A stretch of 64,000 bases of DNA, from positions 1 to 64,000 of the forward strand of contig NGBS01000874.1 of the NCBI GenBank assembly GCA_002245135.1, in the 5' to 3' direction. The notes beneath the pieces were generated by a model, which saw only the letters and a list, made by a program, of their open reading frames with translations, was not told the origin of the DNA and searched no databases. Positions 18,975 through 62,836 of this stretch are shown here, one piece after another (position 1 is the first letter of the stretch; each line of letters starts with the position of its first letter). Origin of the DNA: Proteromonas lacertae (Eukaryota). A program made the position numbers and the translations under genes.

Positions 18975-18978
18975 TATT

Positions 18979-19839: not shown

Positions 19840-19915
19840 TATCATCTACAATATCAGTAATGGCTATATTTCTAATAGTAATATTTCTCTATTTTTATAT
19901 TGTTTTATATATTTT

Positions 19916-20892: not shown

Positions 20893-22248
<1,356 letters not shown>

Positions 22249-30042: not shown

Positions 30043-30094
30043 GTTACCATTTGGTAACTTGTTACCAATTGGTAACTAGTTAACAATTGTAAAC
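30043..30094. repeat. Three 16 bp palindromes at an 18 bp period
   Basis: GTTACCATTTGGTAAC, GTTACCAATTGGTAAC, GTTAACAATTGTAAAC; conserved at about 36496..36545. Confidence 0.8.
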
Positions 30095-30225
30095 TCCCGG
30101 TTCCACGATTGGTTTCCACGGTTCAATTAAAAGCCCTTACAAGATCACCAGCGTAGCAAGGAGAGTCAAGAGCATGATTAGAATCATCACCTCGAGGTAA
30201 CCAACACTTCTAGATAGCTTCCAGG

Positions 30226-31295: not shown

Positions 31296-31473
31296 CTTCC
31301 AGGAGTACCCGTAGGAGATCATCTCATAGATAAGTATAGGTAGGTATAGGAAGGTATAGGTAAGTATTGGTAGGTATAGATAGATATAGAAATAGCTTAG
31401 AGGAGTTCCCGTAGGGAAGTAGACCCCGTTGAGAAGTAGACCCTGTTGGGAGGAATCCCGTAGGAACCTTACG

Positions 31474-34644: not shown

Positions 34645-36895
34645 AGTATAAACATGGGACTTTGGCCTAATGTCATAGAGTCCTAACAATGGTTCTAGAA
34701 GCCATGACTGAAAGAATCTTTGATTATGATACCAACTACTACCTCCAGTTGAATGATGCCAGGGTGATGTCCTTCTTCATTGACTCCAACAACGCCGAGA
34801 TGTTTACCAAGAGCTTACGATATAATGTGGACATGGCAACTCAACTCTCCGAGCAGGTACTCTCAATGTAGCTCTCTGGAAGAGAGGCAACAAGAAGCTC
34901 TTGGCCTTTAAGCAGAACATCTACAGTAACGTCAGTAAAGTCTTCATGTTCTTGCTAGTGATCAAGGATTCAGTTATCTATCCAGGCAAGGAAGTGTCTA
35001 GCGATGAAACTACAACGGAGGCAACTTTATTCAACCTGTAAATATCTTTCCTCATTACAAGATCAAGGACATCTCCATAAATGCTTATCAGCCTCCACAA
35101 CCTCAGTTCCCACAAGGGATGACTTCTCAAGGAGTTATTCCTACTCCTACTCAAGTAGTTGCACCTCAAGGAGTTCAACCAAAACAACAACCTAAAAAGC
35201 CTTCTCAAGGACCTCTTCAATGACTTCAACATCGACTTAATTCCTAGTTGTTGTTCATCAAGGGCTTTCTCATTCATATGTTTTCGCCTTAAGGGCTTTC
35301 TTCTTCATAGCACTGTTAAGTTCCTTGTCGAATTCTTCATCATCGTCTAAGTAGTTGTCTAAGGAGTCATTTTCATTACCTAAGTCATCCTTGGGAGCTT
35401 AATCTTCTGACTTCTCTTCTCCATATTCATACTTGCTATCATTCACATGCTTATTCCAGGTAATAGGAGTAGGATGGATGGAGTAGGCTAATTCATTGAA
35501 GACTGTATGGAGTATTCAGTCTTGAGTGAGTCCATTACCTTCTTGATATCCTCGGAGGTAGGTTTCTTTGATTCATCATCATCAGCAGCAGCAGCAGTAG
35601 TAAGTAGTTGTCTTAGTAAGGCCATTGTATTCTCATCACCATCATCGGAGCTTCCTCTGGCTCCTTGTTTCATCATCATCATCATTATTGTTGAAGGGTC
35701 AAGATCCTCGGAGGAGTCACTTACTTCACGGTCAGCTTCAATGCTCTTCATGATTGTAGGAACTACAAGGAATCCAGGAGTTGATATCGCATCTACGATT
35801 GCCAGGCTTTACTATTTGATACTCTCTAACTACATTATAAGGTGGTGGAACATCATTAAGATCTTCTGCTTCTTGTGTTAGTTTAATAAATTGTTTTTCA
35901 CTTAAGTAATAATTGTTTCTCATAAAACCTTTGAAGTTCAAGGAATTATCGGACTAACCATTTTCTATGAATTCTATCCGAATCAGCAACTGTCTTAATA
36001 TTTTTCCATGTCCTTAATCTTCATGATCCAACCTTCCGTGAATGCTACGCCTAGTCGACTTCACCTTTCATGTTCCTATTGGAATGGATTCTAAGTACTT
36101 CTTACATTGGATATTCTTCGGCTCTAAGCATTGATTATTACCTTGTGCTGTGTTAGTCGATCAAAGCTCTCATGGTTGCTAGAGTCTTGAGATAGACTGA
36201 TAACATATTCCTCCGATTAAGTCGTACTACACACTGAGGAGTATCCTCCATTGGGTTTAAGGAAGTTCTCTAGCTCCTTCTTCTTGAGGCGCTTCATGCA
36301 AATAGACAACTGATGAGAAAATATTAGCTGGATCTATTGCTTACGACGACCTTAACTTCCAGCCGTAAATTGCTTTCCCTTAATAGGTCCTCTACCTATC
36401 GAGTATTCTACGTTCTCGGGAGCCTTCTGCGAATGCTATCTTTCTTCGGAAAAGACACTCCTATTAAGCTTTTAACTAGCCGAAGCCTCCTGGATTTACC
36501 AATTGGTAACTTGTTAACAATTGGTAACAAGTTAACAATTGTAAAGTCCCTGTCCCCAGTTGGTTTCCAAGGTTCAATTAAAAGCCCTTACAAGGTCACC
36601 AGCGTTGCAAGGAGAGTCCCTGTTGTAGGAAATAGTCTCATAGGTAGGTATAGGTAATTAACACTTCTAGATATCTTCCAGGAGTACCCGTAGAAGATTG
36701 TCCTGTAAGAGGAGTCCTGTAAATGGGACTATGGTACAATTGTCAAAGTTCTAACGAGTGTTCTAGGTATCGTAGATGTTCTTGTCCATGATTGCTGCAT
36801 TTGAGGCATAATCAGTAAGGCTTTTATTAGAATCGTTGAAACTCACCGTAGAACCGGGAATTTACAATTCTTAACTTGTTACCAAATGGTAGCTT
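34645..36895. mobile_element. Diverged, deleted relative of the 23378..31682 element
   Basis: ATATAT|AGTATAAACATGGGACT terminus, subterminal palindrome triplet, TIR-like blocks at 36655-36770 and similar GC content. Right end approximate. Confidence 0.7.
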
Positions 36896-36976
36896 CTTTT
36901 AGCTATCTTCTATATATGCAAATTACATTTATAGTAATAAATAGCAAAAGTTTAAATAATTTGCTTAATAGTGTGA

Positions 36977-37957: not shown

Positions 37958-39149
37958 ATTTCCTTAATTAAAGATTTGCAATTTTAATAAAATGTAAAAA
38001 TTAACATAGTAGCATATAACCATATAACCATTATTAATGCTATCAAGAGATGGATTGCTATTACTATTACTTTCTCTATTATTTAGAGAATAAAGTGTAT
38101 TATAATTACTATTTATTACTTATGATGTGATTTTATTTAGTGTCTCAGATGGGATTATCTTCTTGACTTGTTCATTTAGATTAATTATCTTCTTTAATTG
38201 TTGTTGAAAGTTTTGTTGGTTTTCTATAATCCTTTTTTGACCCCTATTCCTCTTCTCTTTGTTATTAAAACTTCTAATGAATGATGATGATGAGAATAAA
38301 GATAAATTGTTCTCATCTATTGTGAATTCTTTACTTAAGTCTCTAAACCATAAGCTTTATAATACTAGAAGGATTTCATACTCAAGATCAAATATTAAAC
38401 ATTATCAACAATGCATTCAAAGAAATAACACTGAATAACTTTCATCCAGATACAGTATTAACAGATGATGATAAGAATATGAAGCTATTTATTGGAGATG
38501 TTGTGCGCCGTTGAGACGCTTTCATCATATAATTACTTTTAAAACAAACTAATATCATTTTTATCTTAGTTATAGAGAGTTATTTACAAATATATAGTTA
38601 GGTCTATGATATAACTTGTACTTATATCAACTATTAGATTAACATAAGTAATATTATTATATAATCCATTACTACTACTTATATGTATTGTTAATATAAA
38701 ATATCTGAAAATAAATCATAATGGTTCATGAGATAAATGAAAAAATAAAACTAAATTCCTTAAAAATTTTACACCTAAATTTTGTTCAAAATTTAATAAT
38801 CTCTACAAATAAATAATTCACTGTAAATTTAACTACTAAATTTAAATAATAAACTTCAGATCTATGTATAGAGATAAAAAAATTATACACAATACAAATT
38901 TATAAAGATAATTCACAAATATTTCTAGTTTCTATATTTAATTTATTACATATGAATATATTTCTAGAACAAAACATATGTATCTCATATACAAAGTATC
39001 ATCTTTATAATCCTTGTGCTTTATAATGAAAACAAATTCTTTTTAAATATTATTTAATTTTGTAATTTTTATTAATTAAAAAATGATATATAGCTAAAGG
39101 TGTAGTTTTAAGGGAAATGAATCTGATTAAAGTCTACATAAATCTGTGG

Positions 39150-40950
39150 AATGTATTATTTCTGTCATAATGGAGAAAACGCTTTGCTTTTTGTTCTGTT
39201 GTCAATCTAGACATAGCATCTTTTATATCATGAATAAAGTATTGAATATTGAAGCTTGTCGCGCGCGATAAAGAAATTTGCGCGATAAAGGAAGTAATTG
39301 TTTATATTTAGATCTAATATAATATTATTGTTAATGTCATTACGCTATGCATGAATATATAATCATTTTGTCTTATAACAGTCATATACAATAGTTATGT
39401 TCAATTATTCATAAATATTCACTTCATATTCATCTTAATTATTTCTATCATTTAACATTATTTTTTTTGCATATATCACTGGAAGAAATTGAAATAAACA
39501 GTTCTTTGATGAAAAGATTAAACAAAATCGATGTTACGATGGTTTGAAATAAAAAATAAAATATTGGCTTGAAGAAGGCTTGAGCATATTTTCTTTTTTC
39601 TTTAATATTTTTTTAAAGGGTACTATATATATATCAATATGTTAATAAGACATATATATTAATATATTCTAGCGATTTAAATAATAAAATAATTACAAAG
39701 ATTAATAATAGATGATATAAATCTTATTGAAAACTTGATGACAATTTCAACATATGTAATTTATTAGACAAAATAATGTTATATTTATATTTACTCGGCC
39801 TTCCAAATAAGTATTAACATATTCACTTTAATGGAAACTTATTACTTCCTTTACCGCGCAAATTTCTTTATCGCGCGAGACAAAGCTTTCAATATTTTGA
39901 ATGCTATCTTTGTTAATGTTCTTTAGTCTAGCGCCAAAAAAGAATAATGTATAATATCCACATGTAATTACATCTCTTTCATTTTGTTTTACTGCTGTTT
40001 TAATAATATGATATTCTTCTTCATAATATGATCTAAAAGAATATGCTATTCTAGTACTTATTGCATCTCTAGAATTTTCATCTTTTTCATATATTGAAAG
40101 GCTGTCTTATATATTGTAGATAATTCGATCATTATCTTTATAATCTACTTCCCAAAAAGTCCAGTGTTTGTATGCTCTATCACAAACAGGAAAGTAATAT
40201 ACTCCATCTTCACTAATCTTTACATAAGCTATTGTAGAAAAAGTATCTGCCTTATATATGTTACCTGGATCGATTATGCAATGATTGAATTGGTTTATAA
40301 AATGTATGAGATAAACCATTTGTTCTCCTTTTAACAGATGTTGATCATCAAATTCGTAACTTAATTCGTCAAATTTCCTTGCATAACATTTCCTTCGATT
40401 TGGTTTACGTGATATAACATCATAATCATAATCATTCATTATCATATCTAAGAATCTTAAGCAAGTATGTGGTTTTTCATCATATGCAACTAATGGATCA
40501 TTTGACTTTGTAATGTTTACATAATAACAAGCATACTTTAATCTACAAGATTACATAAGTTTTGATTAAATCACTCATTAATATAATATCAAGTTCATCT
40601 ACATGTGTTTGAATATTCGCATTTATTATCATGAACATCACTATAGCAATTATATCTTCTGCTTCCTGAAAGTTTGTTTTAATTTGATTTTTTATAAGTG
40701 TGAACTTATTTATCTTTGCTAGTGTCTTATCATACATGATTAAACGTTGTATATCTTCTTCATAAATACCACTATCAATTGTATCATAAACTGTAACTGT
40801 CTACTTTAATAATAAAAGTGTTCATCTTTTTAGTGGCTAAAATATTTAAATCTGTTGCTATAAACAAATCTTCACATGAGTAACATTCTAATATGAACCT
40901 CATTTCATTTAATTCAAGTTTAATTCTTCCAATGCTCTCTCTAATACTTC
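39150..40950 (-). pseudogene. Tandem Ulp1-like (C48) protease region of element 1, degenerate and MITE-interrupted
   Basis: YYFPVCDRAYKHWTFWEVDY, VITCGYY and DIILMSDLIKTY align with 56575..57927. Boundaries approximate. Confidence 0.75.
39257..39882. mobile_element. MITE (TGT...ACA, TIR of about 42 bp)
   Basis: TGTCGCGCGCGATAAAGAAATTTGCGCG TIR, 5 bp TSD AAGCT. The flanks rejoin to the Ulp1 sequence. Confidence 0.9.
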
Positions 40951-41000
40951 ATTATATTCATCATCACTATCACTGCCATCTCTGCCATAATCATCATCAT

Positions 41001-41640
41001 TGTTGTGCGCCGTTTGTCATAGTTGGCCGTTTGTCTACCAGACACTTTTAAAACAAACTAAATGTATATTCTTACTTGTCTTGATGAAAAATCGTTACTT
41101 TTATTACTTACTTTGTTATATGACCTATATCTGCAGTATACTTTTTTGATAATATAAATAGTTTGAATATTTGCGCCATTTGTTTTCTAGAAATTTTTGA
41201 AGCAAACTAAATACATATTTAGCTAATATAGACTAAAATACATTAGTTGAAATGATTAGAACAACTTAATGTTGATCATAAGACATATAAAAAGAAAAAA
41301 GAAAATATAGAATCAAGCCTCACTCAAGCCTATTTTTTACATTTCTTTTTTTATATAGAAAGATGTAATAATTATTATATTCTAATCATTTTAGCTAATG
41401 TATTTTAGTCTATATTTGCTTAAAATGCATATAGTTTGCTTCAAAAATTTCTAGAAAACAAATGGCGCAAATATTCAAACTATTTATATTATCAAAAAAG
41501 TATACTGCAGAGGTAGGTCATATAACAAAGTAAGTAATAAAAGTAACGATTTTTCATCAAGACAAGTAAGAATATACATTTAGTTTGTTTTAAAAGTGTC
41601 TGGTAGACAAACGGCCAACTATGACAAACGGATCACAACA
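41001..41640. mobile_element. Ginger-family MITE with TIRs of about 260 bp
   Basis: TGTTGTGCGCCGTTTGTC...CACAACA, 5 bp TSD ATCAT. Termini nearly match element 2. Confidence 0.92.
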
Positions 41641-41759
41641 ATCATCTTCTTCTAATTCTTCTTTGTTATCTTTACTTTCATTGTCATAATCCTCTTCATC
41701 ACCATCATCTTCACTTTCATTCTGATGAATATGTTTCGTTTGACATATCAACTTGCAAC

Positions 41760-42726
41760 TCTTTATTCTCTTTCATTAACTCTTGAATATCCATCAGAAA
41801 TAATGATCGTGGCTTGCAATGAGTTCTTCTACATATACCAGTATTAATTCTCTCAATAATTCTGTCTATATAATCTGTCCAATACACTTCTTTTTCTTTT
41901 GTTTCATTAAAACTATTCTTTTCTTTCTATACTTTCTTTTGATCTATTTTTGGCTTTGGATACATAAATTTTCTCATTGTAATTCTCAACCTTACCAATT
42001 GTCTGTGGACGATAAGGAGCGCTGTGAATTTCTTTAATATGATACATCTTAAATAATTGTTTAATAACATCATTGACAAACTCCAATCCATTATCCATTT
42101 GCATAATCTTTGGAGGTCCAAATATTCTAATATAATTTGCCACATTTCTTGTAGTTTCCTTTTCTGACTTTGTTTTCTGTGCATAAACCATGGTAAAATT
42201 ACTGTAATGATCAATGATGGTGAGGATATAATGGTATAAGTCCTCTTTTTTCATATTTTTGAAGTCTTTGTTGAATTGATTCATGTTAATTAAATCCAAA
42301 AGTATTCTTTCTCGAGGCAGATTAGAAATAATTGGCTTAACTGGTTGTCCATTTACCACCTTTTTCGTCTCTTGACAACCTATACAAGTGTCAGTATAAG
42401 CCCGCAACATGTCTCTGACTATACCATAGTAATCCTTTTGAAGCAAGGGTAACATATACCTATCATTAGCATGAGCATAATTAAGATGAACAGGTTAAAT
42501 TTGATCGAACGACTCCTCAATTGTAACTACCTTCTTGTTTTTGAAGTACAAAATACCATCCTTTATGGAGTACTTCTTTCTTTTATAGTTACCAATGTTG
42601 CTTAAGTAAAGATCTACTTTCTCCTTTGTGAATGTTCTTGTGCTTTTCTTCGCTATGTTCATAGCATTAATTCTTTCTAAGTAAACGATTTTATAATTAT
42701 AGTCCAAAGTTTTTCTAAGTCTTAGC
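41760..42726 (-). pseudogene. rve DDE integrase/transposase (SCAND3/KRBA2-Ginger2 type), exon 2
   Basis: H-H-CxxC zinc knuckle (VHLNYAH...CIGC), PIISNLPRERILLDLINM, QMDNGLEF, HSAPYRPQTIGKVE. One in-frame stop at 42495 and a 3' frameshift. Confidence 0.9.
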
Positions 42727-45700
42727 CTATAAAAAAGATAGTATAAATGTTATGTGAGTAATGAATATAGATATATAGATAATTACTGTTGTTTATAATA
42801 CTCTTACCCCCAAAAAACAAAAGAAAGAATGTTTATTTATATATTTTAAATCTTAAATAATTAAATCTAAGATTTAAGATATAAGTGTAACAATTGACTC
42901 CTATTATTATCGAATCTAAGATAATAATTCATATATAATTCTACTAATAATTCTTTCCCTTGTTTCTTCGTTGTATTGTCATTACTTTTTAATTAACCAG
43001 CCATCATTAATAGAAATTTTAAAACTGTTCAACCAAAATCATAATGACATTATCAACTACATCAGTTGAATAGTAATCAATTCCATATATTCATAAACAT
43101 ATATAAATGTACCAGTAAAAATTATACCAAGCAAACTCTGTTTCATTTAATGTAACTTCTTTTATTGTATATATTATCTCAGTATAAACTAATAATCTCT
43201 TTTCATTTAATTTATATGTTTGAATTTGAATTTATATAATTCATCTATGGAAATTTCTTCATTCGGAATTCCGCGATAATTGGAGATAATCAATGAGCCA
43301 TTACATTACCATAATTTAATCTATCTTTCCAATATATTTCAAAACATTAATCTCAAAGCATCAGCTTGTTTCTAAATTGCCATTACTATTGTTCTTCAAA
43401 TTACTTCATTGATTTTTCACTTTTCTTCTTATCTACATATTCATTGGTCAAGTTGATCTTTCTTCTACTACGCTACTTGTTCTGTTAATATTATAATATT
43501 ATAATCTATTAGTTGCATTAAGATTTCTTCTTCTTCTATATTGTATATCATATTTAATACAATATAACTCAATTGGATCTTTGCTTATATTCATTATTAC
43601 TAATGGTTATTCAACTGGTTCTAAATGAGATTGTATTGGATCAAATTGAATAACCATTAGAATAAGTATATTTATATCACCAATTTGTGAAGGTGTAAAT
43701 TCTATTTCTGCATTAAACCTTTCACATCATATATTCTGATCTGAGAAGCACCTTATCTTTCAGCTTTTTCTTTCTTAAAACTCCAATCAACAGTTACAGG
43801 ACATTCATTGTATAATGTCACAAACATCACTTGGTATTATTGATAATCGAAGAATACATACATCAGCTCTTAATATTATACAATAAGTTGGTACTCCTTG
43901 TACTTTGATTGGAATTGCTAAATCATATCTTCCATAAGGTAAATCAGATTTCGCTGTAAAACTAGATGTAAATGTCACTGTTGAACTTTTTTGTAATCTT
44001 TTCACTTCATCTGGAGTTAATGTATATCTACACTCTTATAAAGTTCTTCTTTCTATTCCGAAATTCACTGGTAAATTACCTATATTCGTTATTGTAAATG
44101 TCTTTGTCTTACTATCAGTTCGAACTACATTACCAAAATCTACTACATAATCAGCTAATGGAAACTCACCTAAATGTAAATTAGATATTTTCTTATTCGC
44201 CATTTTTGTTGTTTTGACTGTTTCATCTAATAATAAATCGATATAATATAATTTTAAAGCTTCAGATTCTCAATCAACTGTGATTTGTAATGATGCTGTA
44301 TTATTTCGTGAAGGTAATTTATTTATATTTGTCATGATTTTAGGTGGAGATGGTTATTTATTATCATTTTGTTGTGAATTCTTACTTCTCTCAAATACTG
44401 ATTTTTGACTATCTACTCTTGCAGATGATAGTTTCTTATTTTCATATTTTCTTTTCCTTCTTCTGTTATTTAAGTTGCTTATTCTCCTTCTAGTTTTGAT
44501 TCTGGTGGTAATTCTTTTACTGTTGCTTTACCAAGTGTTGGTGAATTGACTGGAATTCCATCTACAGTTATTGGCTTTTTAGCTTCAACTGGTTTTTCTT
44601 TTTCTTCTTCTGCTAATGGTTGTTCTGGTTTTTGTGTTTCTCCTCTTTCTGTTGGTTGTTTGATTGGTGATGGTAATGCTGGGTATGATAATGGATATTC
44701 AGTATTGGATGATACGATCAATCTATCAGCTTCTTCTAAGTAATGTTCCCAACTATTTGGTATTACCAATTCAGCATCATTCACTTTAATTTCTCTATTA
44801 CTTAATCTAAAACACCAACTAAACCAGTTCGAGAAGCACTATCAGTTGACATTTTAAATGGAAAATCTATTATATACATGAGGTATTTCTGAATATCTCA
44901 ATTCAATTTTTTCAGATTCAACTAGTTGTAAAATACATAGAATTTGGGTTATATCATATACTTCATTGATTGGAGATATTTGATTTTAGGTTTCATCTAT
45001 TTATAATTCCCAATGATAAGGACAAGGAATTGTTCCACGAGTTTCAATTGATAATAATAAAGATCTTTCAGTACTATTTAATATACAACCAAAATCCAAA
45101 TCATTCTAAGATAACCATAAAATGGGAAAGGCTACATCAGCTAAACATGGAATTGAATCTTTCTGAGGATAATCTTTATCTTATATTCAAAATACCATTT
45201 ATTTTAAAGGATATTTTATCATCTTTATAATTTGGATCAAATGCCACTGTCACATTCATTGATTCATTTGATTCTAAATGGAATTCATTCATACTTAATA
45301 ATAATGGAGCTGCTATACTTATTATCACATCTAAACTCAACGTTGATATATTCTTAAATACATCTGTCTTACTTTAAACTTCACCTGAAACTATAGCTTC
45401 ATATACATATTAAAATATGATTTATAAATTACACTTTGACTTCTGTTTTTATTGCTTCGTTATTTCTTATTTCTCTATCTATTAATTTATAAGAAAAATT
45501 GATTAATGCTTCATTTGTAAGTGATACTTCATATCGATGTGTTGAATACATAAATATATCACCAATATCTAATATATCATAACTAAAATAAGATTTTGGA
45601 CCAACACCTGAACCTGTTATTAACAATGGAAATCGATCTAATCTATTTTCTAATTCACGATTATTTCAAATCTCACTATCTTACTAGATTTCACCTTCAT

Positions 45701-46043
45701 TTAATTGATTCATTTTTATCTTCAAATGCTAAACAATCACGATCTACTTGGGAATATAATATTTTATATTTTTACCAACTAAATGGGCCGATTTAGATTA
45801 ATCAGTTAATAGTTCTAAATCTATTGTGGGGTTGTTTATACTGTTGTTTAAATTACTTTCTCAAACAGATGGTAATATTTGAACTTGAGGTTAGTTTAAA
45901 TTTTCTTATTTCATCTTCAGTTTATAATGCTTTCCATATAAAATGGCATTTTTTATCTAATAATTAAAAATACTAATTCAACTCATCTGTTAGTAAATAA
46001 AAAAAAAATATAATATAATAAAAAATATATATATAGAACTTAC
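42727..46043 (-). other. Predicted 3317 nt GT-AG intron splitting the transposase ATG
   Basis: Donor AAAAT|GTAAGT at 46043 (conserved at 62350). Branch-like TACTCAC and a poly-T TATAG|G acceptor at 42727. The join gives ATG CTA AGA CTT in frame with the integrase. Confidence 0.65.
43000..45950 (-). pseudogene. HYDIN: Captured Hydin fragments (deleted mosaic) in element 1
   Basis: GVGPKSYFSYDILDIGDIFMYSTHRYEV and YVVDFGNVV are ASH-domain segments homologous to 58.5-62.2 kb. Boundaries approximate. Confidence 0.8.
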
Positions 46044-46509
46044 ATTTTAGAAATTAAAACCATCAGGTTTGATAAGCTTGATTTTTATTTTCGTATTATC
46101 TTCCTTTGTAGATATAATTTGATTGTAATCTTTTAAATTTCTATTGAAATTCGTTTTTTCTATTTGACTAAACCATAAAAATATACAAACTGAAAAGTTG
46201 AAGAAAATAGAAATTTAAATTAAAAAATGACGTCAGAATGGGTATAATTCTTAATTCCTGTGTAACTGACACTTCTTATTTAGACATTATCTATCATCAT
46301 AAACACAAGATTTGGAATATACACAATTTTTAAAATATATTAATGTAAGTTTTAGTCAATATTATAACATAATTTTGTTACTCAAATAAGTAGCTAATAT
46401 GACAAACTAACTATATATTTGTAAATAACTCTCTATAACTAAGATAAAAATGATATTAGTTTGTTTCCAAAGTAATTGTATGATGAGAGCGGCTCAACGG
46501 CGCACAACA

Positions 46510-47094
46510 AGGCATATTCAGATTACTTCCATCTATATATTTTTGAAGATGATTGAAATTCCAATAAATATCTTTAGTCATTACAGAAAAGAGGAGACTG
46601 TCAGTATCTGTCATTAAGAGTCTAACATATTTTGGTGAATTGTAATGTAATACTCCATCATACCGATATTTATACATTAATAATTTAGAAAGAGCAAATA
46701 TTGTCATACCTATCTGAATAGGTTTATTAATTTTGAACATCTTTTTATGATAATGCACTAATCTTAAATCTCCATGAATAGTATGTATCTTATCAAACCA
46801 AGGATCTCTAATAGCTTTTCTTGACTGATTTTCTGACACTACTAATTTGATACTTCTCCTCTTATCAACTCTTTCTAAAGTTTTTCCATAAAGTGAATTA
46901 AGTAATTTCTTCTTGTATATCTGACAATTCATCATAGCTAATCTTCCTTCTTGAAGGTAGAATAGGATATTCTCTTATAATAGGAAATAGGTTCTATATC
47001 CACTTCTAACATATATCCTGTAGTTTCAAAGGAATCATTCTTATCATAGAATTTAGTAGATTCTGATATTTCATAAAGTTTAGGACAACTAGGA
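46510..47094 (-). pseudogene. pPolB fragment (second lineage), truncated by the Ginger TIR
   Basis: KKLLNSLYGK, KPIQIGMTIFALSKLLMY and LLMTDTDSL motifs. Confidence 0.9.
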
Positions 47095-47888
47095 TGATCC
47101 AAATTATAAAGATGATAAAATATCCTTTAAAATAAATGGTATTTTGAATATAAGATAAAGATTATCCTCAGAAAGATTCAATTCCATGTTTAGCTGATGT
47201 AGCCTTTCCCATTTTATGGTTATCTTAGAATGATTTGGATTTTGGTTGTATATTAAATAGTACTGAAAGATCTTTATTATTATCAATTGAAACTCGTGGA
47301 ACAATTCCTTGTCCTTATCATTGGGAATTATAAATAGATGAAACCTAAAATCAAATATCTCCAATCAATGAAGTATATGATATAACCCAAATTCTATGTA
47401 TTTTACAACTAGTTGAATCTGAAAAAATTGAATTGAGATATTCAGAAATACCTCATGTATATAATAGATTTTCCATTTAAAATGTCAACTGATAGTGCTT
47501 CTCGAACTGGTTTAGTTGGTGTTTTAGATTAAGTAATAGAGAAATTAAAGTGAATGATGCTGAATTGGTAATACCAAATAGTTGGGAACATTACTTAGAA
47601 GAAGCTGATAGATTGATCGTATCATCCAATACTGAATATCCATTATCATACCCAGCATTACCATCACCAATCAAACAACCAACAGAAAGAGGAGAAACAC
47701 AAAAACCAGAACAACCATTAGCAGAAGAAGAAAAAGAAAAACCAGTTGAAGCTAAAAAGCCAATAACTGTAGATGGAATTCCAGTCAATTCACCAACACT
47801 TGGTAAAGCAACAGTAAAAGAATTACCACCAGAATCAAAACTAGAAGGAGAATAAGCAACTTAAACAACAGAAGAAGGAAAAGAAAAT
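47095..47888 (+). repeat. Inverted near-identical copy of 44446..45239 (Hydin cargo piece)
   Basis: ORFs 47104.. and 47550.. are identical to 44970.. and 44479... Confidence 0.95.
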
Positions 47889-48372
47889 GATGAAAGTTAA
47901 TTGCTCAGAAATAACATATATAAGTCACTATTATGATATTAAAGTATTAGAAATTGAAGTTATTCAAAGATGCTATAACATATCATTTAATGAAAGAATT
48001 AGCAAAGGAATTAAAAGAAGAAATCATTGTGGTCATTTATGGTATTGATCATATGATTTATTACTTTTTATCTGTAAATTCTTTTCTTTTTATATTAATT
48101 TGTTATATTTTATTTATTCTACATGATATAAATCATGTTCCAAATAATTATCTTTGCAAAAGAATAAGAAATAAATATAAAACATTTTCAAACACTATTC
48201 ATTATTCACCTCACTCAAGATGTGGAATTACTAATCATTTTTTGGATTTATTTCAAGCTCTTTTGTTATCTTTAGTAATTAAAAGAAAAATAGATTGTAT
48301 ATTTATTATACTATTGAGGTAGTTAGTTTGTGGAAGTATATGCTTGATTATTTCTCTTTGTGTAATATAAAC

Positions 48373-49914: not shown

Positions 49915-51974
49915 CTATATATACCACTTAGATAACTCTGTATAGTTTAATGAAGTATATCCCCATTTACAAACACTCATCGCACAACAGAACTTCACAT
50001 GATACATGCTTATCATTACACTATTATCTACTATAACATATGCTTGAATTAAATACGAATAAAAAGTAGAAAAAAAGAAAAAATGTTTGATTAACTCGAG
50101 TTCTTGCATTTTGAATGCCATCTCATAATAGGTTTAGAGATAATATCTATAGATTATATAACATTAATAATTGCATAGAAAGACCTGGCGAGAAGAATAA
50201 AAGGATTGAATGCAAAAAGTGCAAAATGTTTATCATCAAGCATGCTACTCAGTTAAAAAGACATGCAAGACAGTATTTTAGATTATTATTATAATTTATA
50301 GTTGCACAAGCGTAGCAGTTCAGTCAACAATTGATATGAGTGATCATAGCAAAGACAAGGAGATTGTTGAATTAATAATAGAAAACAATCTCCCTTTAAG
50401 CGTAGTTGAATCCAAATCGTTCAAAAGCTTGTTCAAAAATTATGCTGTGCCATCAGCTAAAAAAGTAAAAAAAATAATTGAAACAGAATCGAAGAAAATG
50501 TTAAATGAGTGTATAGATAGAAGAAAAAAACTAACAATAATATTGGATGAATGGGAAAATATACTTGGAAATAGCATCATAAACATAGCAGTTAAACAAA
50601 ATCAAAGAATTGTATTTGTTGAAAGTGTATTACAAAAAAAGGTACAAACAACAAGAAATATTGTAGATCTTATTTCTGATATCTTAGAAAGAAATAATTT
50701 GGATATGAATAACATTTCTGCAGTAGTAACTGACAACAATCCAACTATGAAACATATTGGTGAAGTTATTCAACAAAGAACAAGCAATACAATTATTACA
50801 TTTGGTTGCCTTGCTCATGTTGTAAATTTAATTACCAAAAAAATAATGGAAATTGATAAGTATAATGATATTCTTCAGTATTGCAATGACATGATTCATA
50901 AACTAAAAACCAATACACGAGTAAGACAATTTATATTCAACAAATATCAGGAAGTTCCGCAGATCAGAAAAGGATGTCCAACTAGATGGACATCCTTTTC
51001 AAAAATGTTTAGCAAAATTATTAAACACAAAGATATTTCAATTGATGCTAAGTTATTAGATGAAAGTCGTTGCGAAGAAATAAGTGAAATAATGAAAATT
51101 ACCAACAAGCTATCAGCATATGTGCAAGAATTAAGCAGAGATAGCACTACTTTAAGCGATGCATACTGTATCATTAAATCAATGAAGAGATATTTGAAGT
51201 CATGCGAAAATGATAATATAAAGAATATAATTACCAAACAATTGGAATTATCGAATTTGGATATATTATTGATAAGTCAATATTTAAATGTAAACTATAA
51301 ATTCAAACATGGAGATAAAAATGATTACTCAAAGAGATTCATTATAGATAATTTCTCTGATATTTGTGACAGAAATTTGGTTGCAGAAATATACTTTTTT
51401 GAAAACAGAATGCCATACAATGGTTCACCTTCTTCCATTTTTCGCGAAAGTATTTCAACCGATATATGGTTTGCAACATATGACATATACTTTAGAAATT
51501 TAAAGAAAATTTATGATATTATATCAACAATACCATGTTCAAGCTCTTTTATTGAGAGAATTTTCTCCATCGAAAGCGTAATACATTCATACAGGAGAAA
51601 CAGATTAAACTTAGATACTATTAATAACATTATGAGATTAAAGTATGAATTAGTTGAGAGAAATAAGAGAGAATAAGAACAAAATGTAGAAAGTGATGAA
51701 GATGAAAATAGAGAAATTACTAATGTGGAAGATATAAGTGAAGAAGATGATGAGCAAAGTGAAGAATGTAGTCCAGATTATTAATGTTATTATTAATTAT
51801 CTTTATTCTTACTAATAAATGTTTTAATAAAATAAAAAATCACATAATTTATTTATATAACAAAAAGGTAATATCAAATATTTACAAAAAGGACAAATTA
51901 CTGTCCTTTATCGTACTCTTGTCCCGGACATGTCCCGGACATGTCCTTTTTGTCCCTGTCCCCGCCGAACTCAG
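49609..51974 (+). mobile_element. Full-length hAT transposon (flanks do not match)
   Basis: CTGAGTTCGGC...GCCGAACTCAG termini and an intact transposase. Confidence 0.92.
50115..51676 (+). CDS. hAT transposase, 510 aa, exons 50115..50272 and 50302..51676
   Basis: A 29 nt intron adds a BED finger (CKKC...LKRHARHC). Also LDEW, VTDN, CLAH, TRW and ERIFS motifs. Confidence 0.9.
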
Positions 51975-52237: not shown

Positions 52238-52307
52238 GTAATAATTCTTTATTATTGACTTCTATTTTTATTTTTTGATTTCTCACTACATAATATATAC
52301 ACACACA

Positions 52308-54554: not shown

Positions 54555-56311
54555 AACTGTTTCTTTCTTCTGTTTATAACAACAGTTTCTTGTCAGAATT
54601 TCGATTTAGTAAAAAATATAGAATATTGCAGATAATTCTTTAAATATATATTTTTGACACTATTTAAATTCTTTTGAATGTTTTTAACTACATTATATAA
54701 ATCCATAAATAATTTGATAAATGAAAAAATAACATAAAAAAGTAAGAACGCATTCTGTAGCTTGGCCACCACACTATTTAATCACTAAGTCCTAGTCAGG
54801 CTACACAGGACACGCTACTTACTTACATAGAAATACATTTCTTATTAAATAAAGTAGCTACCCTGCCGGGGTAGAACAGGTAGCTACCTATCTATTTATA
54901 CACTTTATTTCTACTATCCTACGCTAAAAACTATTAAAAACATAAAAATAAAATTTGACCCCATAAATTTATTCACACACTAAAATATATAAAGAAATTT
55001 AAATTCACCGCTTGCTCCAGTATAACCGTACCAAAAACTAATTCACACTCAAATCGCTTATTCTTACCTGTAGAAGGCACCTAAGAATAGTCTGGTACGG
55101 TTTACCCACATACAGTGATATTCTTACGGTTATACATTTATTCATCTCCATTTCTTTTACACAATTCGTAATAAAATACATCTGTTACAAATAATTGAAA
55201 ATTTTATTCAAGCTTCAGTTTGAAAATTCCATTTATTTTCAAGTTTATTAGGTTATATCTTATGGATATCAATATAATTTTGTATATTATAAATGTATTT
55301 TTACAGTAGGAATAGAATGGGCTCCAATTAATTCTACTTCAAGGTGGATTTTAAGAAAAGTGGTTGTGGAATTGCTATCTATGATAATTTTACTAATTTG
55401 TTTTTTAATATATCTAAGTAGTTTGATGGTATATTTTATTTATATATAAATAGTGTTTGCAATAAATAAAGAGAAATTAGTGGAAGTAAAGAATATATAC
55501 CTATGAAAGCAATGTGTTAGAATGAATGACAAATCAGATATTAAAAATTATAGCGTAAAAGTAAGAAATCCATGTTTAGGACAATATTATCAACCATATT
55601 TTTCCAAAACCTGAAGTAAATCATTCCAAATTCTTAGCTTGTCTCAATGACTGGTAGTTTTATAGATGTGTTGTGCGCCGTTTGTCAGAGTTGGCCGTTT
55701 GTATACCAGACACTTTCAAAACAAACTAAATACATAATTACACTTCTTTTAATGAAAAATTGTTACTTTTATTTTAACATTTTGTATATGATAGACATGT
55801 CACGATATGACTTAATTAGCCTATGTAACAAAAATTTTTACATAATCTATTAATACATATTAAGTACATGAATAATATAAAATATTATCTTACAACTCAC
55901 TTCTGTTGTTGATATAAATAAAAAAATGTAACTAAAAACTTGAATTTTCTTACCCCCTTATTTGTACGAAAATTAATATTTTGATATAAAAACTTGTTTT
56001 ATATGCACATGTTTTTCATCAAAATCTATAATTTTAGATATAAAGTTAATATCTACAATATTAACAGAAATACAATCTTTAATCGACATGAATCTCAAAG
56101 CTACAACATATTAATGTATTTCATATTTCAGTGCCTTCAATAAAAATCATTCATTTCAGCGTGTAGCCAATTACAATATATTTTTAACACTTAGCTTCTT
56201 TTGTATAATTTACAAAATTATAATTTATGGGTTGTTTTTGTTTTATATAATAGTATCAATGATTATGAAATGATACACATAAGTTACAGAAGAAAATTGA
56301 GAAGTGAAAAA

Positions 56312-56369
56312 TGTCTCCTAGACAAACGGCGTATTTCTAAATCTTCTCACGCCGTTTGTCTAGGAGACA
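56312..56369. other. Perfect 20 bp stem hairpin built from the TIR motif
   Basis: TGTCTCCTAGACAAACGGCG-N18-CGCCGTTTGTCTAGGAGACA. Confidence 0.85.
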
Positions 56370-56574
56370 CTTTTGATTTCTCATATTTCATATATGAGAT
56401 AATCATAATATATTATTAACAAATATAACAAAATTGAAATCAGAAAATAAGTTGAAACAACATTCAACTCAAATCTTTTTCCAAAATTGGTTTTATGTTA
56501 TGTGGATGTGTGTACCTAACAAACACATTGTAATTATATAAAAATACTTTGTAGAATTTTTAAAGAAAATGAAA

Positions 56575-57927
56575 TTATTTAAATCTATAAATGTTTTTTT
56601 TGTTGTAAATGTAAAACAATTTTGCTTTTTCTTCGTTATTTAAACTTTCTATACCTTCAATTAAATCATCAATGAAGTATTCTATATTAAAACTTTCTAT
56701 ATTTTGAATCTTTGTTATTTCCAAATTATTCAATCTTGCTCCAAGAAAGAATAAACAGTAATATCCACAAGTTACAGCATCTGTTTGATAAACTTTTGTA
56801 TCTACTATTTCATATGATTCTAATTCACGATTGCAAGAATGAAAGAGTTGTTTAATATTCTTTATTACTATATTTCTTGGTTCTTTGTTCATATAAATTG
56901 CTAAACTGTCATATATTCTAAACATCATATAGTCATTAGGAACATAATCTACTTCCCATAAACTCCAATGACTTTGATTTGGATCACATACTGGAAAATA
57001 ATAAATTCCTTTTTCACTTATCTTTTTTTTATTATCCTTTTGCTTTTCATTTAAAAATTCAACATCAGGATCAATATCATTCTTATTGTTGTTGGAAATA
57101 TAATGTAATAAAAACAGGAATTTATCGCCTTTTAGTTGATTGTTAATATTTAAATGACTCACCAATTCTTTACAATTTACTTCATATTTCGGTTGTTGAT
57201 GTTGTCCATAGAATCTTACATGACCAATATCATTATATCCTTTAATTTTCTTTACAAACAACAAACTATCATGAGTGTGATCATCATATGTAATTGATGC
57301 AACACTAGTATCTTTTCTATTTACCATTTAACATGCATATTTTAAAGTCATTGAATTACGCTCTATCAGAAGGTGTATATAGGTTTTGAATAGATCAATC
57401 ATGAGAATAATATCAACATCGCTTATATATGGATGATCTTCAGACATCTTTATCATTAGCATTACAGCAGCCAATATTTCTGTTGCTTCAGGAAAGTTAG
57501 TATTAACATTGGTCTTGACAATCTTATATTGAGATATTATTTCACCTACACTTCTATCATATCTACCATTACGACGAATACCTTGTGCATAATCATCTTT
57601 ACCAAATGAATCTATAACTTCGATAGTTTTATTATCATGATGAATGATAACAGTGTAATAATTGTTACTATCTTTAGCTCTAATTATGAATGCTTCCATC
57701 TCTTTATTCATTATCATTTGTTTATTTTTACATACGTAATAATGTTGATTTAAATTGTATAATTCCAATATGAAATGAATTTCATTTAATCCAAGTTGTA
57801 TTTTTCCAATACTTTTTATAAATCTTTCAACAAATTCCAACTGATCATTAGTTAATGGATCCTTAATATCTTCTTCAGAAGTTCTAATGCCAAATATATC
57901 ATACACTGCATTCTTCTTTGGATTCAT
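56575..57927 (-). pseudogene. Inactive-looking plus catalytic Ulp1-like (C48) protease domains, one reading frame with a nonsense codon at 57328
   Basis: Catalytic SHW, YDSL and QTDAVTCG motifs. Element 1 has Tyr (LKYACYYVN) where this copy has TAA. Confidence 0.85.
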
Positions 57928-58504
57928 TACTATTTGCTGAAGTCTTTTTTCATAGGTGTTAATATCCTTTTTCTTAGGATTAGGATGAATCTATTTAATA
58001 TAAATTATCATCAAATATACTAGTATTTTGTCTGTTGTTTTCTTCATATTCTCTAATAATTCTGATGAAACTTCAAACTTTATTAAAGGTGTAGATGATA
58101 CTAATGGAATTTGCATGTTTTCATTTCTATTCATTAGATAGTAATAATTTAATAATATACACTAAATATTGCTTTTTATTAACTTTATCATCTTTAACTA
58201 ATGCTAGACTCTTTTCATCTTGGCACATCTTTCTTTTCACAGCTGTAATAACCACATCTCCATGTTCTGGATTAACTAGTTTATTTCCTAATTTCTTAAT
58301 GGAATCATCTCTCATTTTGTTATTATAATTGAAGTTTCTTTAGTCTATATAATCTTGAAACTGTTCTATTATATTTCCATTTTGTATTATATCTTTTTTG
58401 ATTCTATCTTTATAATCTTCTTCTTCCATTATTGTTACTTCACCATTACCGCTATTACCACCATCATCACTATTATCGCTATCATTACCATCTTCATCTT
58501 AAAG

Positions 58505-61500
58505 TTATTCTTTCTATTCCGAAATTCACTGGTAAATTACCTATGTTAGTTATTGTAAATGTCTTCATCTTACTATCAGTTCGAACTACATTACCAAAAT
58601 CTACTACATAATCAGCTAATGGAAACTCACCTAAATGTAAATTAGATATTTTCTTATTCGCCATTTTTGTTGTTTTGCCTGTTTTATTACTGATATTTGT
58701 TAAACCAGTTTCAGGTGTTTTTGTGGTTTTATCAACTACTCCTTCACTTTTTGAACCATTTATTGATGTTCCATTTAATTCTTTCTCTTTTCGAGCTACA
58801 CATAAATCAATAGGATTTTGATTGTTTATTTCATCTAATAATTAATCAATATAATATAATCTTAATGCTTCAAATTCTCTATCAACTGTGATTTGTAATC
58901 CTGTTGTATTCTTTCCTGAAGGTAATTTGTTCGTATTTGTCATCATTTTAAGTGGAGATGGTATTTTATTATCATTCTGTTGTGAATTCTTACTTCTGAC
59001 AGAAACTGATTTTTGACTATTTACTCTTGCAGAATACTGTTTTTTGTTTTCATCTTTTTCTTTTTCTTTACATTTTTCTTCTTCTGCATTTGTATTTGCT
59101 ATTGTTGGTTCTTCACTATGTGGTGCTAATTCTCCTTCTAGTTTTGGTTCTGGTGGTAATTCTTTTAAACATGTGTTGGTGAATTAACTGGAACTCCATC
59201 TACAATTATTGGCTTTTCAGCTTCAACTGGTTTTTCTTTTTCTTCTTCTGTTGATGGTTGTTCTGGCTGTTGTTGTTGTCTTGCTTCTTCTCCTTCAGTA
59301 TTTATAATAGTGTTATTATTACTTTCATCTATTGAAGATTCCACTACTTCAGGTAAAGATGGTTGTTGTTTGATTGGTGATGGTAAAGCTGGAATGATAA
59401 TGGATGTTCTGTATTGGATAATTCAATCAATCTATCAGCTTCTTCCAAGTAATGTTCCCAATTATTTGGTATTACCAATTCAGCATCATTCACTTTGATA
59501 TTTGCATAAATACCTGTTATATAAAGTAGAAAATCTATTGGAACATAATGAGCTATTTCTATTACTAATTTCTCTATTACTGAATCTGGAATTCCTACTC
59601 TCATTTTAACAGAGATTCTTTGTTGATCATGAGATGGAATTAATCCATTACATGGTGAAACACCAACTAAACCAGGTCGAGATACACTATCAGTTGAGAT
59701 TTTAAATGGAAAATCTACTGAACCTGTATTAAATATATGAAAATCTCTTTCTTCTACTTTCATATAAGGAATTCTACCAAAATCAATATTTTGTTTATCC
59801 AATCTATAAGATAAGACTGAACTTTCACCTTTCATTTTGATGTTATAAACTGGTCCTCCATCTACATAACATTTACCCAATGCTCTTGATAATACATGTG
59901 GTATTCCTGAATATCTCAATTCCATTTCTTCACATTCACCTAGTTGTAAAATACCTTGAATTGGAGTTATTTCAAATACTTCATTGATTGGAGATGTTTG
60001 ATTTTCAGTTTCATCAATTTCTAATTCCCAATGATAAGGACAAGGAATTGTTCGACGATTTTCAGTTCAAAATCAAAATCATTTTGAGATAACCATAAAT
60101 TGGGAAAGGCAACATCAGCTACACATGGAATTGAATCTTTCTGAGGATGATCTTCATATCTTATATTCAATATTCCATTTATTTTACTAGAGATTTTATC
60201 ATCTTTATAATTTGGATCAAATTCCACTGTCACATTAGTTGATTCATTTGGTTCTAAATGGAATTCATTCATACTCAATAATAATGGAGCTGCTACACTT
60301 ATTATCGCATCTAAACTCAATGTTGATATATTCTTAAATACAACTGTCTTACTTTGAACTTCGATTTTCTCTTCAGAACATTGAATTAATGGATTCATAA
60401 AGTTCACTTTTACTTCGGTTTCTTTTGCTTCATTATTTCTTATTTCTCCATCAAATTTCCTCAAACAAGAAAACATTTTCATCACTTCACAGGGTTTTTC
60501 ACAGCTTCCAGATGTTACAAAATTTCAAGCAGTATTGGGTTTTAATTCGATTGCATTGGGAGTTATTGTAAATATAGCTTCATAAGGTTTGAATTCATTT
60601 CACTTTCCATCTTTGATTTATTGGCTTTAAAAGATTTTTCTTTTTCTACTGCTGTTTGATTTATCCAAGTTAATCTTTGACTTCTTAAACCTCGGTTTTC
60701 TAATAAAAAAATACTCTTTCGATTGTTCTGTTTGTGAATTGATCACCAAAATCAATTACATCTACTGGATCTTCTCAAAATATTGTTGTTATTATACATT
60801 TAGCTGTAACTGGAAGAATTGCACTATCTCCTTCAGTTGCTGCTATGTATATTGTATCTTTATAAGCTAATACATCTTCCAACATGCAACTAACTACTAT
60901 CTTTTGAGATTCTTTACTTTGTAATATACCATCAACTCTATCAGTATTAAAATAAAATCCTCGTTCAAAATCTAATTTATAAAAAGCTGGAATTGAAGTT
61001 GGATTAGTTATTGTAAATTCTTTTGTATGAGTATCTAAACAAGTTATATCACCAAATTTTATATGATTTAAATTTGACTTTATCACTGGTCCAAGTCCAT
61101 TTGCTTCTAATACTAATACCAATGGAGGATATTGACTGCCACGTATTTGAATATATAATGGAATTCTCATATCACCTAATTTCTCAGGATTTAATAAAAC
61201 TTTAATCATTTGAGTTGCCATTGGTCCAATTACGCCTTTAACTGGATCAGGGAAATAACTACCAATCGATTTACTTCTTTCATCTTGTTCTGTTTTCAAA
61301 TTGAGCACTTAAATTGGATTTATTCTTTAATGTTAAAGTTCGATAATAAGTATATCTTAAATAACAATCTCCATATTTCAATGATTCTTCTAATAATTCT
61401 ACTTCAGCTACTCGACATTCAGCACTTATTGGAATTGTTAATAAAGCTTCACCTACACTTTCAATATCAATTGCTAAACAATAATCATATACTTTTATTG

Positions 61501-62210
61501 TTTGAGATATGAAATTGATTTTGATTTTCTTTTCTCCTTCTGGTAATACTGTTGCTACTGCTTGAACTATTTCGAATTCTTTGTTTAAGTAATTACCATC
61601 TTGAGGAACTCGTAAATTGAATATAAATGGAACAGAGGAAGTATTTCTTAATATCAAATCAGTTGAGTTAAAAACACATAACTTACAATACCAAAATCTA
61701 GTTTATTCTTATTAAAGAAGAATGTTGGACCAACTACATGTCCTTTTATTGTTAATACCACATTATTAGTTGCTCCTTTTAATGCAAATTCAAAATGATC
61801 ACTAAATTCACCAAGAGTTGAACTTGTATAAGATACTTCGATTGTTACACTTTCTTCTATATCTAATTCACCTTGGTGGAGTAAATATTACATTTGGTTT
61901 AATTGATCCTTCATTGGTAAGTGATACTTCAACCAATATCTAATGATAAATAAGCAGGATCCATTGATATTATTTGAGTGCTTCAACCAATATCTAAATC
62001 TTGAGCTTGAGCTTTTTTTCTTCTAATTAATACATTTTTTCTCCTAAAGTCTAAATCAACACTATTCTGCTGTATATTTGATATATTATTTTTTCTACTC
62101 TATAATTGGGCCTAGTTAATCTTTGACTTCTTAAACCTCGATTTTCTATTAAAATGCGCTTTCAGCTTATCTGTTAATAAATTTACCACCAAAATCAATT
62201 ACATCTACTT
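58505..62210 (-). pseudogene. HYDIN: Captured Hydin fragments in element 2
   Basis: LRNTSSVPFIFNLRVPQDG, IKFGDITCLDTH, GILNIRYEDHPQKD and GGPVYNIKMKGE are repeated ASH domains characteristic of Hydin. Confidence 0.85.
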
Positions 62211-62309
62211 TATGTTCATAAAATAATGATGCTTCTATACCTTTCGCTGTACATGATAGTATTATACAGTTTATAAATAATATAAAGTAAGTATTTTGAT
62301 AATAATAAT

Positions 62310-62348
<39 letters not shown>

Positions 62349-62836
62349 ACATTTTGATTTTCTTAAATAAAAAAAAAAACTGTCAAGTTTGACAAGCTTG
62401 ATTTTTCTTTTTTGAAATATCTTCATATCTTGATATAATATTTTAACATTCTTCAAAGTTTCTACTGAAATTCATTTTTTCTCTTTGACTGAATCAAAAA
62501 AACATACAAACAAAAAAGTTGAAGAAAATGAAATTTTAAATTAAAAATGACGTCAGAAGGGGTACAATTCTTAATTCCTGTTTAACTGACACTTCTTATT
62601 TAGACATTATATGTCAATAAAAACATAAAATTTGGAATATACATAATTTCTAGAATATATTTTGATAGTTTTTATTCAATATTATGACAATTAATAGTTA
62701 CTCATAGATGTAGGTTATATGACAAAGTAAGTATAAAAGTAACAATTTTTCATTAAAAGAAGTGTAATTGTGTATTTAGTTTGTTTTGAAAGTGTCTGGT
62801 AGACAAACGGCCAACTCTGACAAACGGCGCACAACA

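What the first reader, a model, noticed from the sequence alone, without database searches (positions are those of the whole stretch)
42727..46043. Transposase start codon assembled by splicing across a 3.3 kb cargo intron (AT|G)
Seen: on the minus strand exon 1 ends ...CTAAAAT|GTAAGT (46043). The integrase exon begins after TACTCAC...TTTTTTATAG|G (42727). Joining gives ATG CTA AGA CTT AGA AAA ACT TTG GAC (MLRLRKTLD...), exactly in frame with the integrase. Unspliced RNA reads AUG-UAA, a start immediately followed by a stop. The donor is conserved in the diverged element 2 (62350). Most other introns in the window are only 29-39 nt. Inference: transposase expression depends on splicing of an unusually large intron, which also serves as a slot where cargo can sit without disrupting the transposase.
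Basis: partly seen in the sequence, partly recalled or inferred. Interest (0 to 1): 0.88.

Follow-up and report, generated by a model that had tools for sequence, protein, structure and literature searches.

The report
Split start codon in dead transposon
In this family of jumping genes the start codon of the transposase is likely split by a normally short intron; in this broken copy the intron has swollen to 3.3 kb with scraps of a host flagellar gene, which likely reflects decay rather than a working cargo slot.

Summary
The sequence facts hold. Donor 46043 and acceptor 42727 join to AT|G, in frame with an rve integrase of a Ginger2/TDD-like DNA transposon (38499-46509) that also encodes a Ulp1-like protease. 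The split start gains independent support. Predicted proteins of two sister families (42-45% identical) turn from intron-like to protein-like text at an Arg (AG|R) at the same place. One of them begins M-Y-I, which reads as AT|GTATAT and implies a 45-nt intron. The helix upstream of the internal ATG is conserved and confidently modelled. The '3.3 kb working cargo intron' is not supported. This copy carries two nonsense codons, a frameshift, two deletions and two MITE insertions, and has no target-site duplication. An acceptor of equal pyrimidine score lies 57 nt from the donor. Six short predicted introns in the window are 29-39 nt. Element 2 lost its integrase core to the same Hydin cargo. 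The cargo is younger than the split between the two backbones. Start-codon introns, intron-bearing Ginger transposases and cargo-carrying Ginger relatives are each in print; their combination was not found. Splicing itself is untested.

The parts
38499..46509 (-). Element 1 (E1): decayed Ginger2/TDD-like DNA transposon with 103-nt terminal inverted repeats starting TGTTG; no matching target-site duplication
   Evidence: TIR 95%; flanks GGAGA / AGGCA
46044..46509 (-). 5' TIR, presumed promoter and exon 1, ending in AT (46045-46044); in-frame ATG at 46063 not conserved in E2
42727..46043 (-). Intron 1 as expanded in this copy (3317 nt): GTAAGT donor, (TA)n/T tract, cargo, TACTCAC..TATAG acceptor
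   Evidence: splicing untested
45987..45997 (-). Competing acceptor TTTACTAACAG (57-nt intron; the join gives ATA TGA, no transposase)
   Evidence: pyrimidine score 13 of 17, best of 107 YAG sites inside the intron and equal to the distal acceptor
43530..45665 (-). Captured, decayed Hydin fragments, collinear with large internal deletions; ends approximate
   Evidence: PDB Hydin hits: mouse chain 9ijj_4G residues 488-544, 1629-1672, 1680-1753
42830..43530 (-). Unidentified filler inside the intron (also 45670-45987)
   Evidence: no Pfam family in 6 of 6 frames; no meaningful PDB hit
41641..42726 (-). Exon 2, integrase part (H2C2 finger, DD35E core): starts with G; TTG at 42707, internal ATG at 42662, nonsense TAA at 42497, frameshift near 41980, deletion near 41730
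41001..41640 (.). 640-bp palindromic MITE with E2-type TIR inserted in the integrase tail; 5-bp target duplication ATCAT
39149..41000 (-). Remainder of the transposase gene: acidic tail, deletion, then C-terminal region with a Ulp1-like (CE-clan) protease, with a nonsense codon
   Evidence: homologous E2 frame hits CE-clan proteases weakly
39257..39882 (.). Second TGT..ACA MITE, in the protease end; 5-bp target duplication AAGCT
55669..62836 (-). Element 2 (E2): sister family; donor AAAAT|GTAAGT at 62350; Hydin fragments 62251-58500 replace acceptor and integrase core; keeps the C-terminal exons
57991..58160 (-). E2 introns 2 and 3 (58160-58127, 34 nt; 58020-57991, 30 nt), GTATAT donors
   Evidence: removal gives a 618-codon frame with 2 internal stops, against at least 16 stops in each unspliced frame

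Best explanation
This is a broken copy of a Ginger2/TDD-like DNA transposon whose transposase start codon is likely completed by splicing (AT|G) across a first intron that is likely short in working copies, and the 3.3 kb length here likely comes from host Hydin DNA copied in during repair. In an intact element, exon 1 would end in AT. A phase-2 intron of about 45-100 nt would be removed, and a roughly 1000-residue protein (H2C2 finger, DDE core, acidic linker, two more 30-34 nt introns, Ulp1-like protease) would be made. Shown: splice-site sequences, frame, Hydin identity, lesions, lack of target duplications. Inferred: splicing, intron length in intact copies, and capture by gap repair or template switching at the (TA)n/T tract behind the donor. 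In E1 the donor would more likely be used with the acceptor 57 nt away, so the cargo would silence rather than spare the transposase.
For: (1) Sister-family proteins are unspliced genomic gene calls: 7 of 7 families with a complete end run into intron 2 at the same M-Y or V-Y, where E2 has GT|GTATAT. (2) Of 34 records listed (2 families) reach far enough upstream. All 5 switch from uncharged F/Y/I/L-rich text (60-72% FYIL) to protein-like text at an Arg, 10 residues before the conserved D/H-K motif; the window does so 7 residues before it. Such text occurs in 7 of 1800 coding windows; Arg makes up 3.6% of non-coding translation. (3) P0161 begins M-Y-I, which reads as AT|GTATAT, and implies a 45-nt intron; Y-I is 1.6% of background pairs. 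(4) The gene caller writes TTG/GTG as M (P0011 and P0160 M = Leu in P0161; P0168 M = Val in P0165), so the first M of intact copies (MDYNHK) fits the TTG at 42707 and aligns with Leu/Val of other families. (5) The model has a helix at residues 2-16, upstream of the internal ATG, with block pLDDT 72-87. (6) E2 exon 1 has no in-register Met other than the split one. (7) E1 is dead and has no target duplication. (8) Cargo blocks are 88-96% identical between E1 and E2, backbones 81% (5') and 66-73% (3'). (9) The acceptor at 45987 ties the distal one; 6 of 10 intron candidates in the window are 29-39 nt.
Against: Sister-family evidence is read from predicted proteins, not DNA: the Arg codon may be AGA or CGN, and the M of P0161 may be TTG or GTG. 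Only 5 of 34 records are informative and only 1 shows both ends of the intron. The P0013/P0163/P0164 family begins MLRADH, which may be a plain ATG in exon 2. The first M of P0001 could be a true ATG mutated to TTG in this copy (227 of 246 residues identical). E1 has an in-frame ATG at 46063, which in a strict scan would be met first. E2's sequence behind the donor resembles E1's acceptor region no more than chance (344 of 2549 windows score as high), so E2 gives no acceptor support. The intron length in intact copies of E1's own family is unknown. The order of cargo gain and gene death is unknown.
Confidence: 0.68

Rival explanations
1. One reading: the 3.3 kb intron is spliced as a unit, and cargo-bearing copies stayed autonomous, so intron 1 is a neutral cargo slot.
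For: In E1 both splice sites and the frame survive around the cargo. Both elements in the window carry Hydin directly behind the same donor. The lesions in E1 could postdate the cargo.
Against: E1 is dead and E2 lost the integrase core. Neither has a target duplication. A nearer acceptor of equal score and nearer donors compete. Short introns dominate the window. One sister family implies 45 nt.
Confidence: 0.1
2. The intron lies in the 5' leader or just after a short coding exon, and translation starts at a plain ATG (46063, a true ATG at 42707 in intact copies, or the internal ATG at 42662), so AT|G is incidental.
For: ATG at 46063 is in frame. 6 of 9 members of the intact cluster are called from MDYNHK and 3 of 9 from MNIAKK. 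One sister family starts MLRADH. AT|GT also occurs at intron 2, an internal Met, in 6 of 7 families, so the pattern is not special to starts.
Against: ATG 46063 is absent from E2. The caller writes TTG as M and that position is Leu/Val elsewhere. An internal start would drop a conserved, confidently modelled helix. P0161 begins M-Y-I.
Confidence: 0.18
3. The donor and the integrase exon come from different elements joined by rearrangement or misassembly, so the 3.3 kb pair never was one intron.
For: The window is full of near-identical inverted duplications, including 801 nt of the cargo at 99.75% just outside E1. E1's flanks do not match.
Against: E1's two TIRs match each other (95%) and differ from the E2 type. 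Sister families show the same intron position.
Confidence: 0.04

Closest known systems
Ginger2/TDD DNA transposons (Bao, Kapitonov, Jurka 2010, PMC2836005; parts 1-2 of 5 and passages read)
   Same: TGTNR ends, TIR of about 100 nt, H2C2 finger plus DDE integrase without YPYY or GPY/F; 5-bp target duplication of nested MITEs as in TDD-4/TDD-5; protist-like host.
   Different: C-terminal Ulp1-like protease, which that paper describes only for Ginger1; likely split start codon; host-gene cargo. Tree placement not tested.
Ginger1 DNA transposons (same paper)
   Same: Integrase fused to a C-terminal Ulp1 or OTU protease; 0-4 GT-AG introns in the transposase gene.
   Different: No YPYY or GPY/F motif, no CCGG/CCGT 4-bp target duplication.
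GingerRoot elements with gene fragments (PMC6839031; passages read)
   Same: Integrase-related TIR transposon carrying host gene fragments (22 of 77 elements); fragment gain often goes with transposase loss (6 of 22 keep a DDE motif), as in E2.
   Different: 6-bp target duplication; plants and animals; no start-codon intron in the passages seen.
Pack-TIRs / Pack-MULEs (PMC8277862; abstract and passages read)
   Same: Host DNA filled into a TIR element by gap repair or template switching, often after the element landed.
   Different: Parent gene and microhomology could not be checked here; cargo sits behind an intron donor.
Start-codon introns (Yarrowia lipolytica, PMC13309789; passages read)
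   Same: 42 introns have their donor directly after the A, T or G of the start codon; they are efficiently spliced.
   Different: Host genes, not transposases; the passages do not say how many split the codon rather than follow it.

Membership tests
Ginger2/TDD | TIRs of about 50-300 nt starting TGTNR | tested here: met
   103-nt TIR, TGTTG
Ginger2/TDD | H2C2 zinc finger and DDE integrase core | tested here: met
   H74, H79, C108, C111 invariant in 8 of 8 aligned sequences; D138, D205, E241 motifs; rve E 2.6e-11; fold matches retroviral and Ty3 integrases
Ginger2/TDD | No GPY/F and no YPYY motif | tested here: met
   GP[YF] absent in 7 of 7 family proteins; no YPYY-like match in P0001. Only the exon-2 product was tested.
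Ginger2/TDD | 4-bp (Ginger2) or 5-bp (TDD) target duplication | tested here: inconclusive
   E1 and E2 have none; 2 of 2 nested TGT..ACA MITEs have 5 bp, one with the E2-type TIR
Ginger2/TDD | No reverse transcriptase or RNase H beside the integrase | tested here: met
   none among 41 window ORFs scanned; 28 of 30 distant hits scanned are also free of RT/RNase H domains
Ginger2/TDD | Groups with TDD-4 and Ginger2 in an integrase tree | not tested
   no named reference sequences were returned by any search
Ginger1 | YPYY and GPY/F motifs | tested here: not met
Ginger1 | CCGG/CCGT 4-bp target duplication | tested here: not met
Ginger1 | C-terminal Ulp1 or OTU protease | tested here: inconclusive
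   H-W, D and Q-x-D-x-x-x-C-G motifs aligned to CE-clan proteases, best E 0.011; no Pfam Peptidase_C48 hit
GingerRoot | 6-bp target duplication | tested here: not met
   5 bp in nested MITEs, none for E1/E2
Pack-TIR | Host gene fragment between TIRs | tested here: met
   Hydin fragments in E1 and E2
Pack-TIR | Parent gene in the same genome, microhomology at breakpoints | not testable with these tools
   the rest of the genome could not be searched
Start-codon intron | Spliced transcript creates ATG used for translation | not testable with these tools
   indirect support only

The most novel reading that the evidence does not exclude
A whole lineage of Ginger-type transposons (integrase fused to a Ulp1-like protease) makes its start codon only by splicing, and that first intron is a recurrent landing pad where different families pick up the same host gene and still splice and jump, in a host whose other introns are about 30 nt.
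Probability: 0.1. Interest if true: 0.65.

Novelty: new variant of a known kind. Interest (0 to 1): 0.32.

Why it matters
If the split ATG is conserved across these families, transposase synthesis strictly requires host splicing of intron 1. That gives a simple control point and explains why gene callers miss the true start. The elements also combine TDD-like traits (5-bp target duplication, no YPYY or GPY/F) with a Ginger1-like protease fusion, which bears on how the two Ginger groups are defined. The stronger claim, kilobase cargo tolerated in a genome of 30-nt introns, would bear on how short-intron spliceosomes choose sites, but the evidence here points against it.

Tried and rejected
Sequencing runs: no run, and no RNA holder, was listed for 38499-46509; this is no evidence either way, and no reads could be laid. 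DNA of relatives: none confirmed in metagenome contigs (0 of 593 pattern matches), viral contigs (0 matches; 0 of 77) or prokaryote genomes (0 of 8). A 19-nt TIR pattern gave 4 metagenome loci; all are 43-56% GC, without integrase, and were rejected as chance. My idea that E2 keeps the old branch point and acceptor right behind the donor failed: 344 of 2549 control windows scored as high. TACTAAC as the host's branch consensus was rejected: none of the six short introns has it. GTAAGT at 61686 is Hydin coding sequence, not a donor. The hAT gene's 29-nt intron does not split its ATG (junction CAT). Contig-length arithmetic for P0006 (505 nt upstream of the acceptor, against a 466-nt exon 1) fits a short intron but does not exclude a long one. 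The Atlas gave no answer. The TDD-4 paper (Wells 1999) was not held, so its intron structure was not checked. Earlier scan notes: 4 look-ups, nothing shown. Literature searches found no transposase with a split start codon; one search (six terms together) returned 0 papers; most subscription papers are not searched. PMC10182648 (one passage) was irrelevant. No supplements were opened.

Full report
Setting. The window comes from an AT-rich eukaryote (mostly 23-33% GC) that reads as standard code. It is a heap of mobile-element pieces: pPolB, A32-like ATPase, hAT and rve integrase hits among 41 ORFs scanned, with many near-identical inverted duplications.

The observation. Donor, acceptor, frame, the unspliced ATG TAA and the conserved donor in element 2 are all as stated. 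For one fixed donor-acceptor pair the join has about a 0.6% chance (92 of 746 GTAA sites follow AT; 449 of 3057 YAG sites precede G; one phase in three). With any GT allowed, 26 of 166 give ATG, so the argument depends on this being the only GTAAGT in the interval and on its conservation. An intron scan gave 10 candidates, 6 of 29-39 nt with GTAT donors. Removing two of them in E2 opens a 618-codon frame with 2 internal stops; removing two at 7 kb opens about 218 codons.

The element. E1 runs 38499-46509 between 103-nt TIRs. A protein search found an intact relative, P0001 (499 aa; cluster of 9 unnamed records), identical to E1 at 227 of the first 246 residues. Against it, E1 has TAA at 42497, a frameshift near 41980, loss of residues 331-352, a 640-bp MITE, loss of about residues 401-499 and the next exon, a stop in the protease part and a second MITE. 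Both MITEs have TGT..ACA ends and 5-bp target duplications; E1 and E2 have none. E2 (55669-62836) lacks the integrase core but keeps the tail, two short introns and a C-terminal frame with weak CE-clan protease hits (best E 0.011). The intact gene is inferred to encode about 1000 residues.

Is the start really split? No DNA of other copies could be had, so I read the N-termini of predicted proteins. A profile search gave sister families 38-53% identical to P0001. They are unspliced genomic calls: 7 of 7 families with a complete end run into intron 2 at M-Y or V-Y, where E2 has GT|GTATAT. The caller writes TTG and GTG as M. Of 34 records listed (7 further fragments or unrelated records, P0010, P0017, P0167-P0169, P0172, P0174, were left out of that list), 5 reach the acceptor region. 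P0161 reads M-Y-IKYIFNNLNYFF-S-R-SITNN. P0014, P0165, P0166 and P0170 read a 29-residue I/Y/L-rich run ending T-R-SELLN. The window reads HLYYLFY-R-LRLRK. In each, uncharged intron-like text ends at an Arg, as AG|R would give, 7-10 residues before the same conserved motif; such text occurs in 7 of 1800 coding windows. P0161's M-Y-I matches AT|GTATAT, the host's usual donor, and implies a 45-nt intron that happens to be open. The model of P0001 (8-sequence alignment, mean pLDDT 54) is confident for residues 1-110 and has a helix at 2-16, upstream of the internal ATG. E2's exon 1 has no other in-register Met. Against this: codons cannot be read from proteins; only one record shows both intron ends; the P0163 family starts MLRADH, perhaps a plain ATG; P0001's first M could be a true ATG; E1 has an in-frame ATG at 46063; AT|GT also recurs at intron 2, where the Met is internal. 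I put the split start at about 75-80%.

Is the 3.3 kb intron a working cargo slot? The filling is decayed Hydin, collinear with big deletions (mouse chain residues 488-544, 1629-1672, 1680-1753), flanked by about 320 and 700 nt of unidentified DNA. E2 holds overlapping Hydin pieces behind the same donor. Cargo blocks are 88-96% identical between the elements, backbones 81% (5') and 66-73% (3'). The cargo therefore arrived after the backbones split, by separate capture or by copying between elements; the 5' junctions differ. Both cargo-bearing copies seen are dead and neither is flanked by a duplication, so neither is shown to have jumped with cargo. In E1 an acceptor 57 nt from the donor ties the distal one as best of 107 YAG sites, and its join gives ATA TGA; donors at 42807 and 42786 lie 81 and 60 nt from the distal acceptor. 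With host introns near 30 nt, use of the 3.3 kb pair is unlikely, by inference. What keeps the rival alive: both sites and the frame survive in E1, the order of cargo gain and death is unknown, and intron length in E1's own intact copies was not seen. Transcript evidence was not examined.

Mechanism proposed. Intact element: transcription from the 5' end, removal of a short phase-2 intron to form ATG, two more short introns, one integrase-protease protein, cut-and-paste with a 5-bp duplication (inferred from the MITEs). Derived copies: a break at or near the (TA)n/T tract behind the donor is filled from Hydin DNA by template switching, as described for Pack-TIRs (PMC8277862, abstract and passages). 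The acceptor and exon 2 survive in E1 and are lost in E2. AUG-UAA needs no special role: it follows from an AT|GTAA donor, and P0161 would read through.

Comparison. It works like Ginger2/TDD and meets the sequence features tested (TGTNR TIR, H2C2, DDE, no YPYY or GPY/F, no RT), but tree placement is untested and the protease fusion is described for Ginger1 only (PMC2836005, parts 1-2 of 5 and passages; PMC3575427, passages). Introns in Ginger1 transposases are known (0-4). GingerRoot carries gene fragments in 22 of 77 elements, mostly with loss of the DDE region (PMC6839031, passages). Introns at start-codon nucleotides are known in Yarrowia (42 cases; PMC13309789, passages). Searches found no transposase with a split ATG; the library lacks most subscription papers, the TDD-4 paper was not held, and no supplements were opened.

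Verdict. The feature is real and the split start is likely and probably shared across the lineage. The large cargo intron is most likely a derived state of a dead copy. New variant of a known kind; interest 0.32.

Noticed in passing
window 47095-47895: 801 nt of E1's Hydin cargo repeated in inverted orientation at 99.75% identity just outside the element, next to a pPolB-like fragment (46456-46974; label from resemblance, no Pfam hit): a recent duplication or an assembly effect.
   Followed up: partly
window 60641-60808 and 62090-62251: E2 holds the same Hydin segment twice at only 80% identity, which suggests more than one Hydin source copy.
   Followed up: no
window 56575-58495 (-) and 39149-41000 (-): TDD-like transposase continues through two short introns into a region of unknown family and a Ulp1-like protease; this fusion is described for Ginger1 only in the paper read.
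   Followed up: partly
window 39257-39882, 41001-41640, 56292-56389: Two MITEs with TGT..ACA ends and 5-bp duplications nested in E1, and a small palindrome with TIR-like sequence inside E2.
   Followed up: partly
window 1-13156, 5661-6143, 52245-53069, 17317-22248: Polinton- or virus-like pieces: pPolB fragment, A32-like ATPase, small Arg/Gly-rich genes, and a 3.8 kb inverted duplication (1-3834 / 9308-13156, 98%).
   Followed up: no
window 50115-51676 (+), copies near 4635-5649 and 30226-31390: hAT transposase with a 29-nt phase-2 intron at 50273-50301.
   Followed up: partly
window 23372-30225 and 35000-36900: GC-richer (38-43%) stretch with long minus-strand frames (822 aa at 24074-26542) and no Pfam family in three frames read through; possibly a retroelement or viral insert.
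   Followed up: partly
P0001, P0161, P0165, P0163, P0171, P0177, P0178 C-termini: Intron 2 sits at the same phase-2 position (M-Y or V-Y) in 7 of 7 families and in E2, so intron positions are conserved across 38-78% protein identity.
   Followed up: yes
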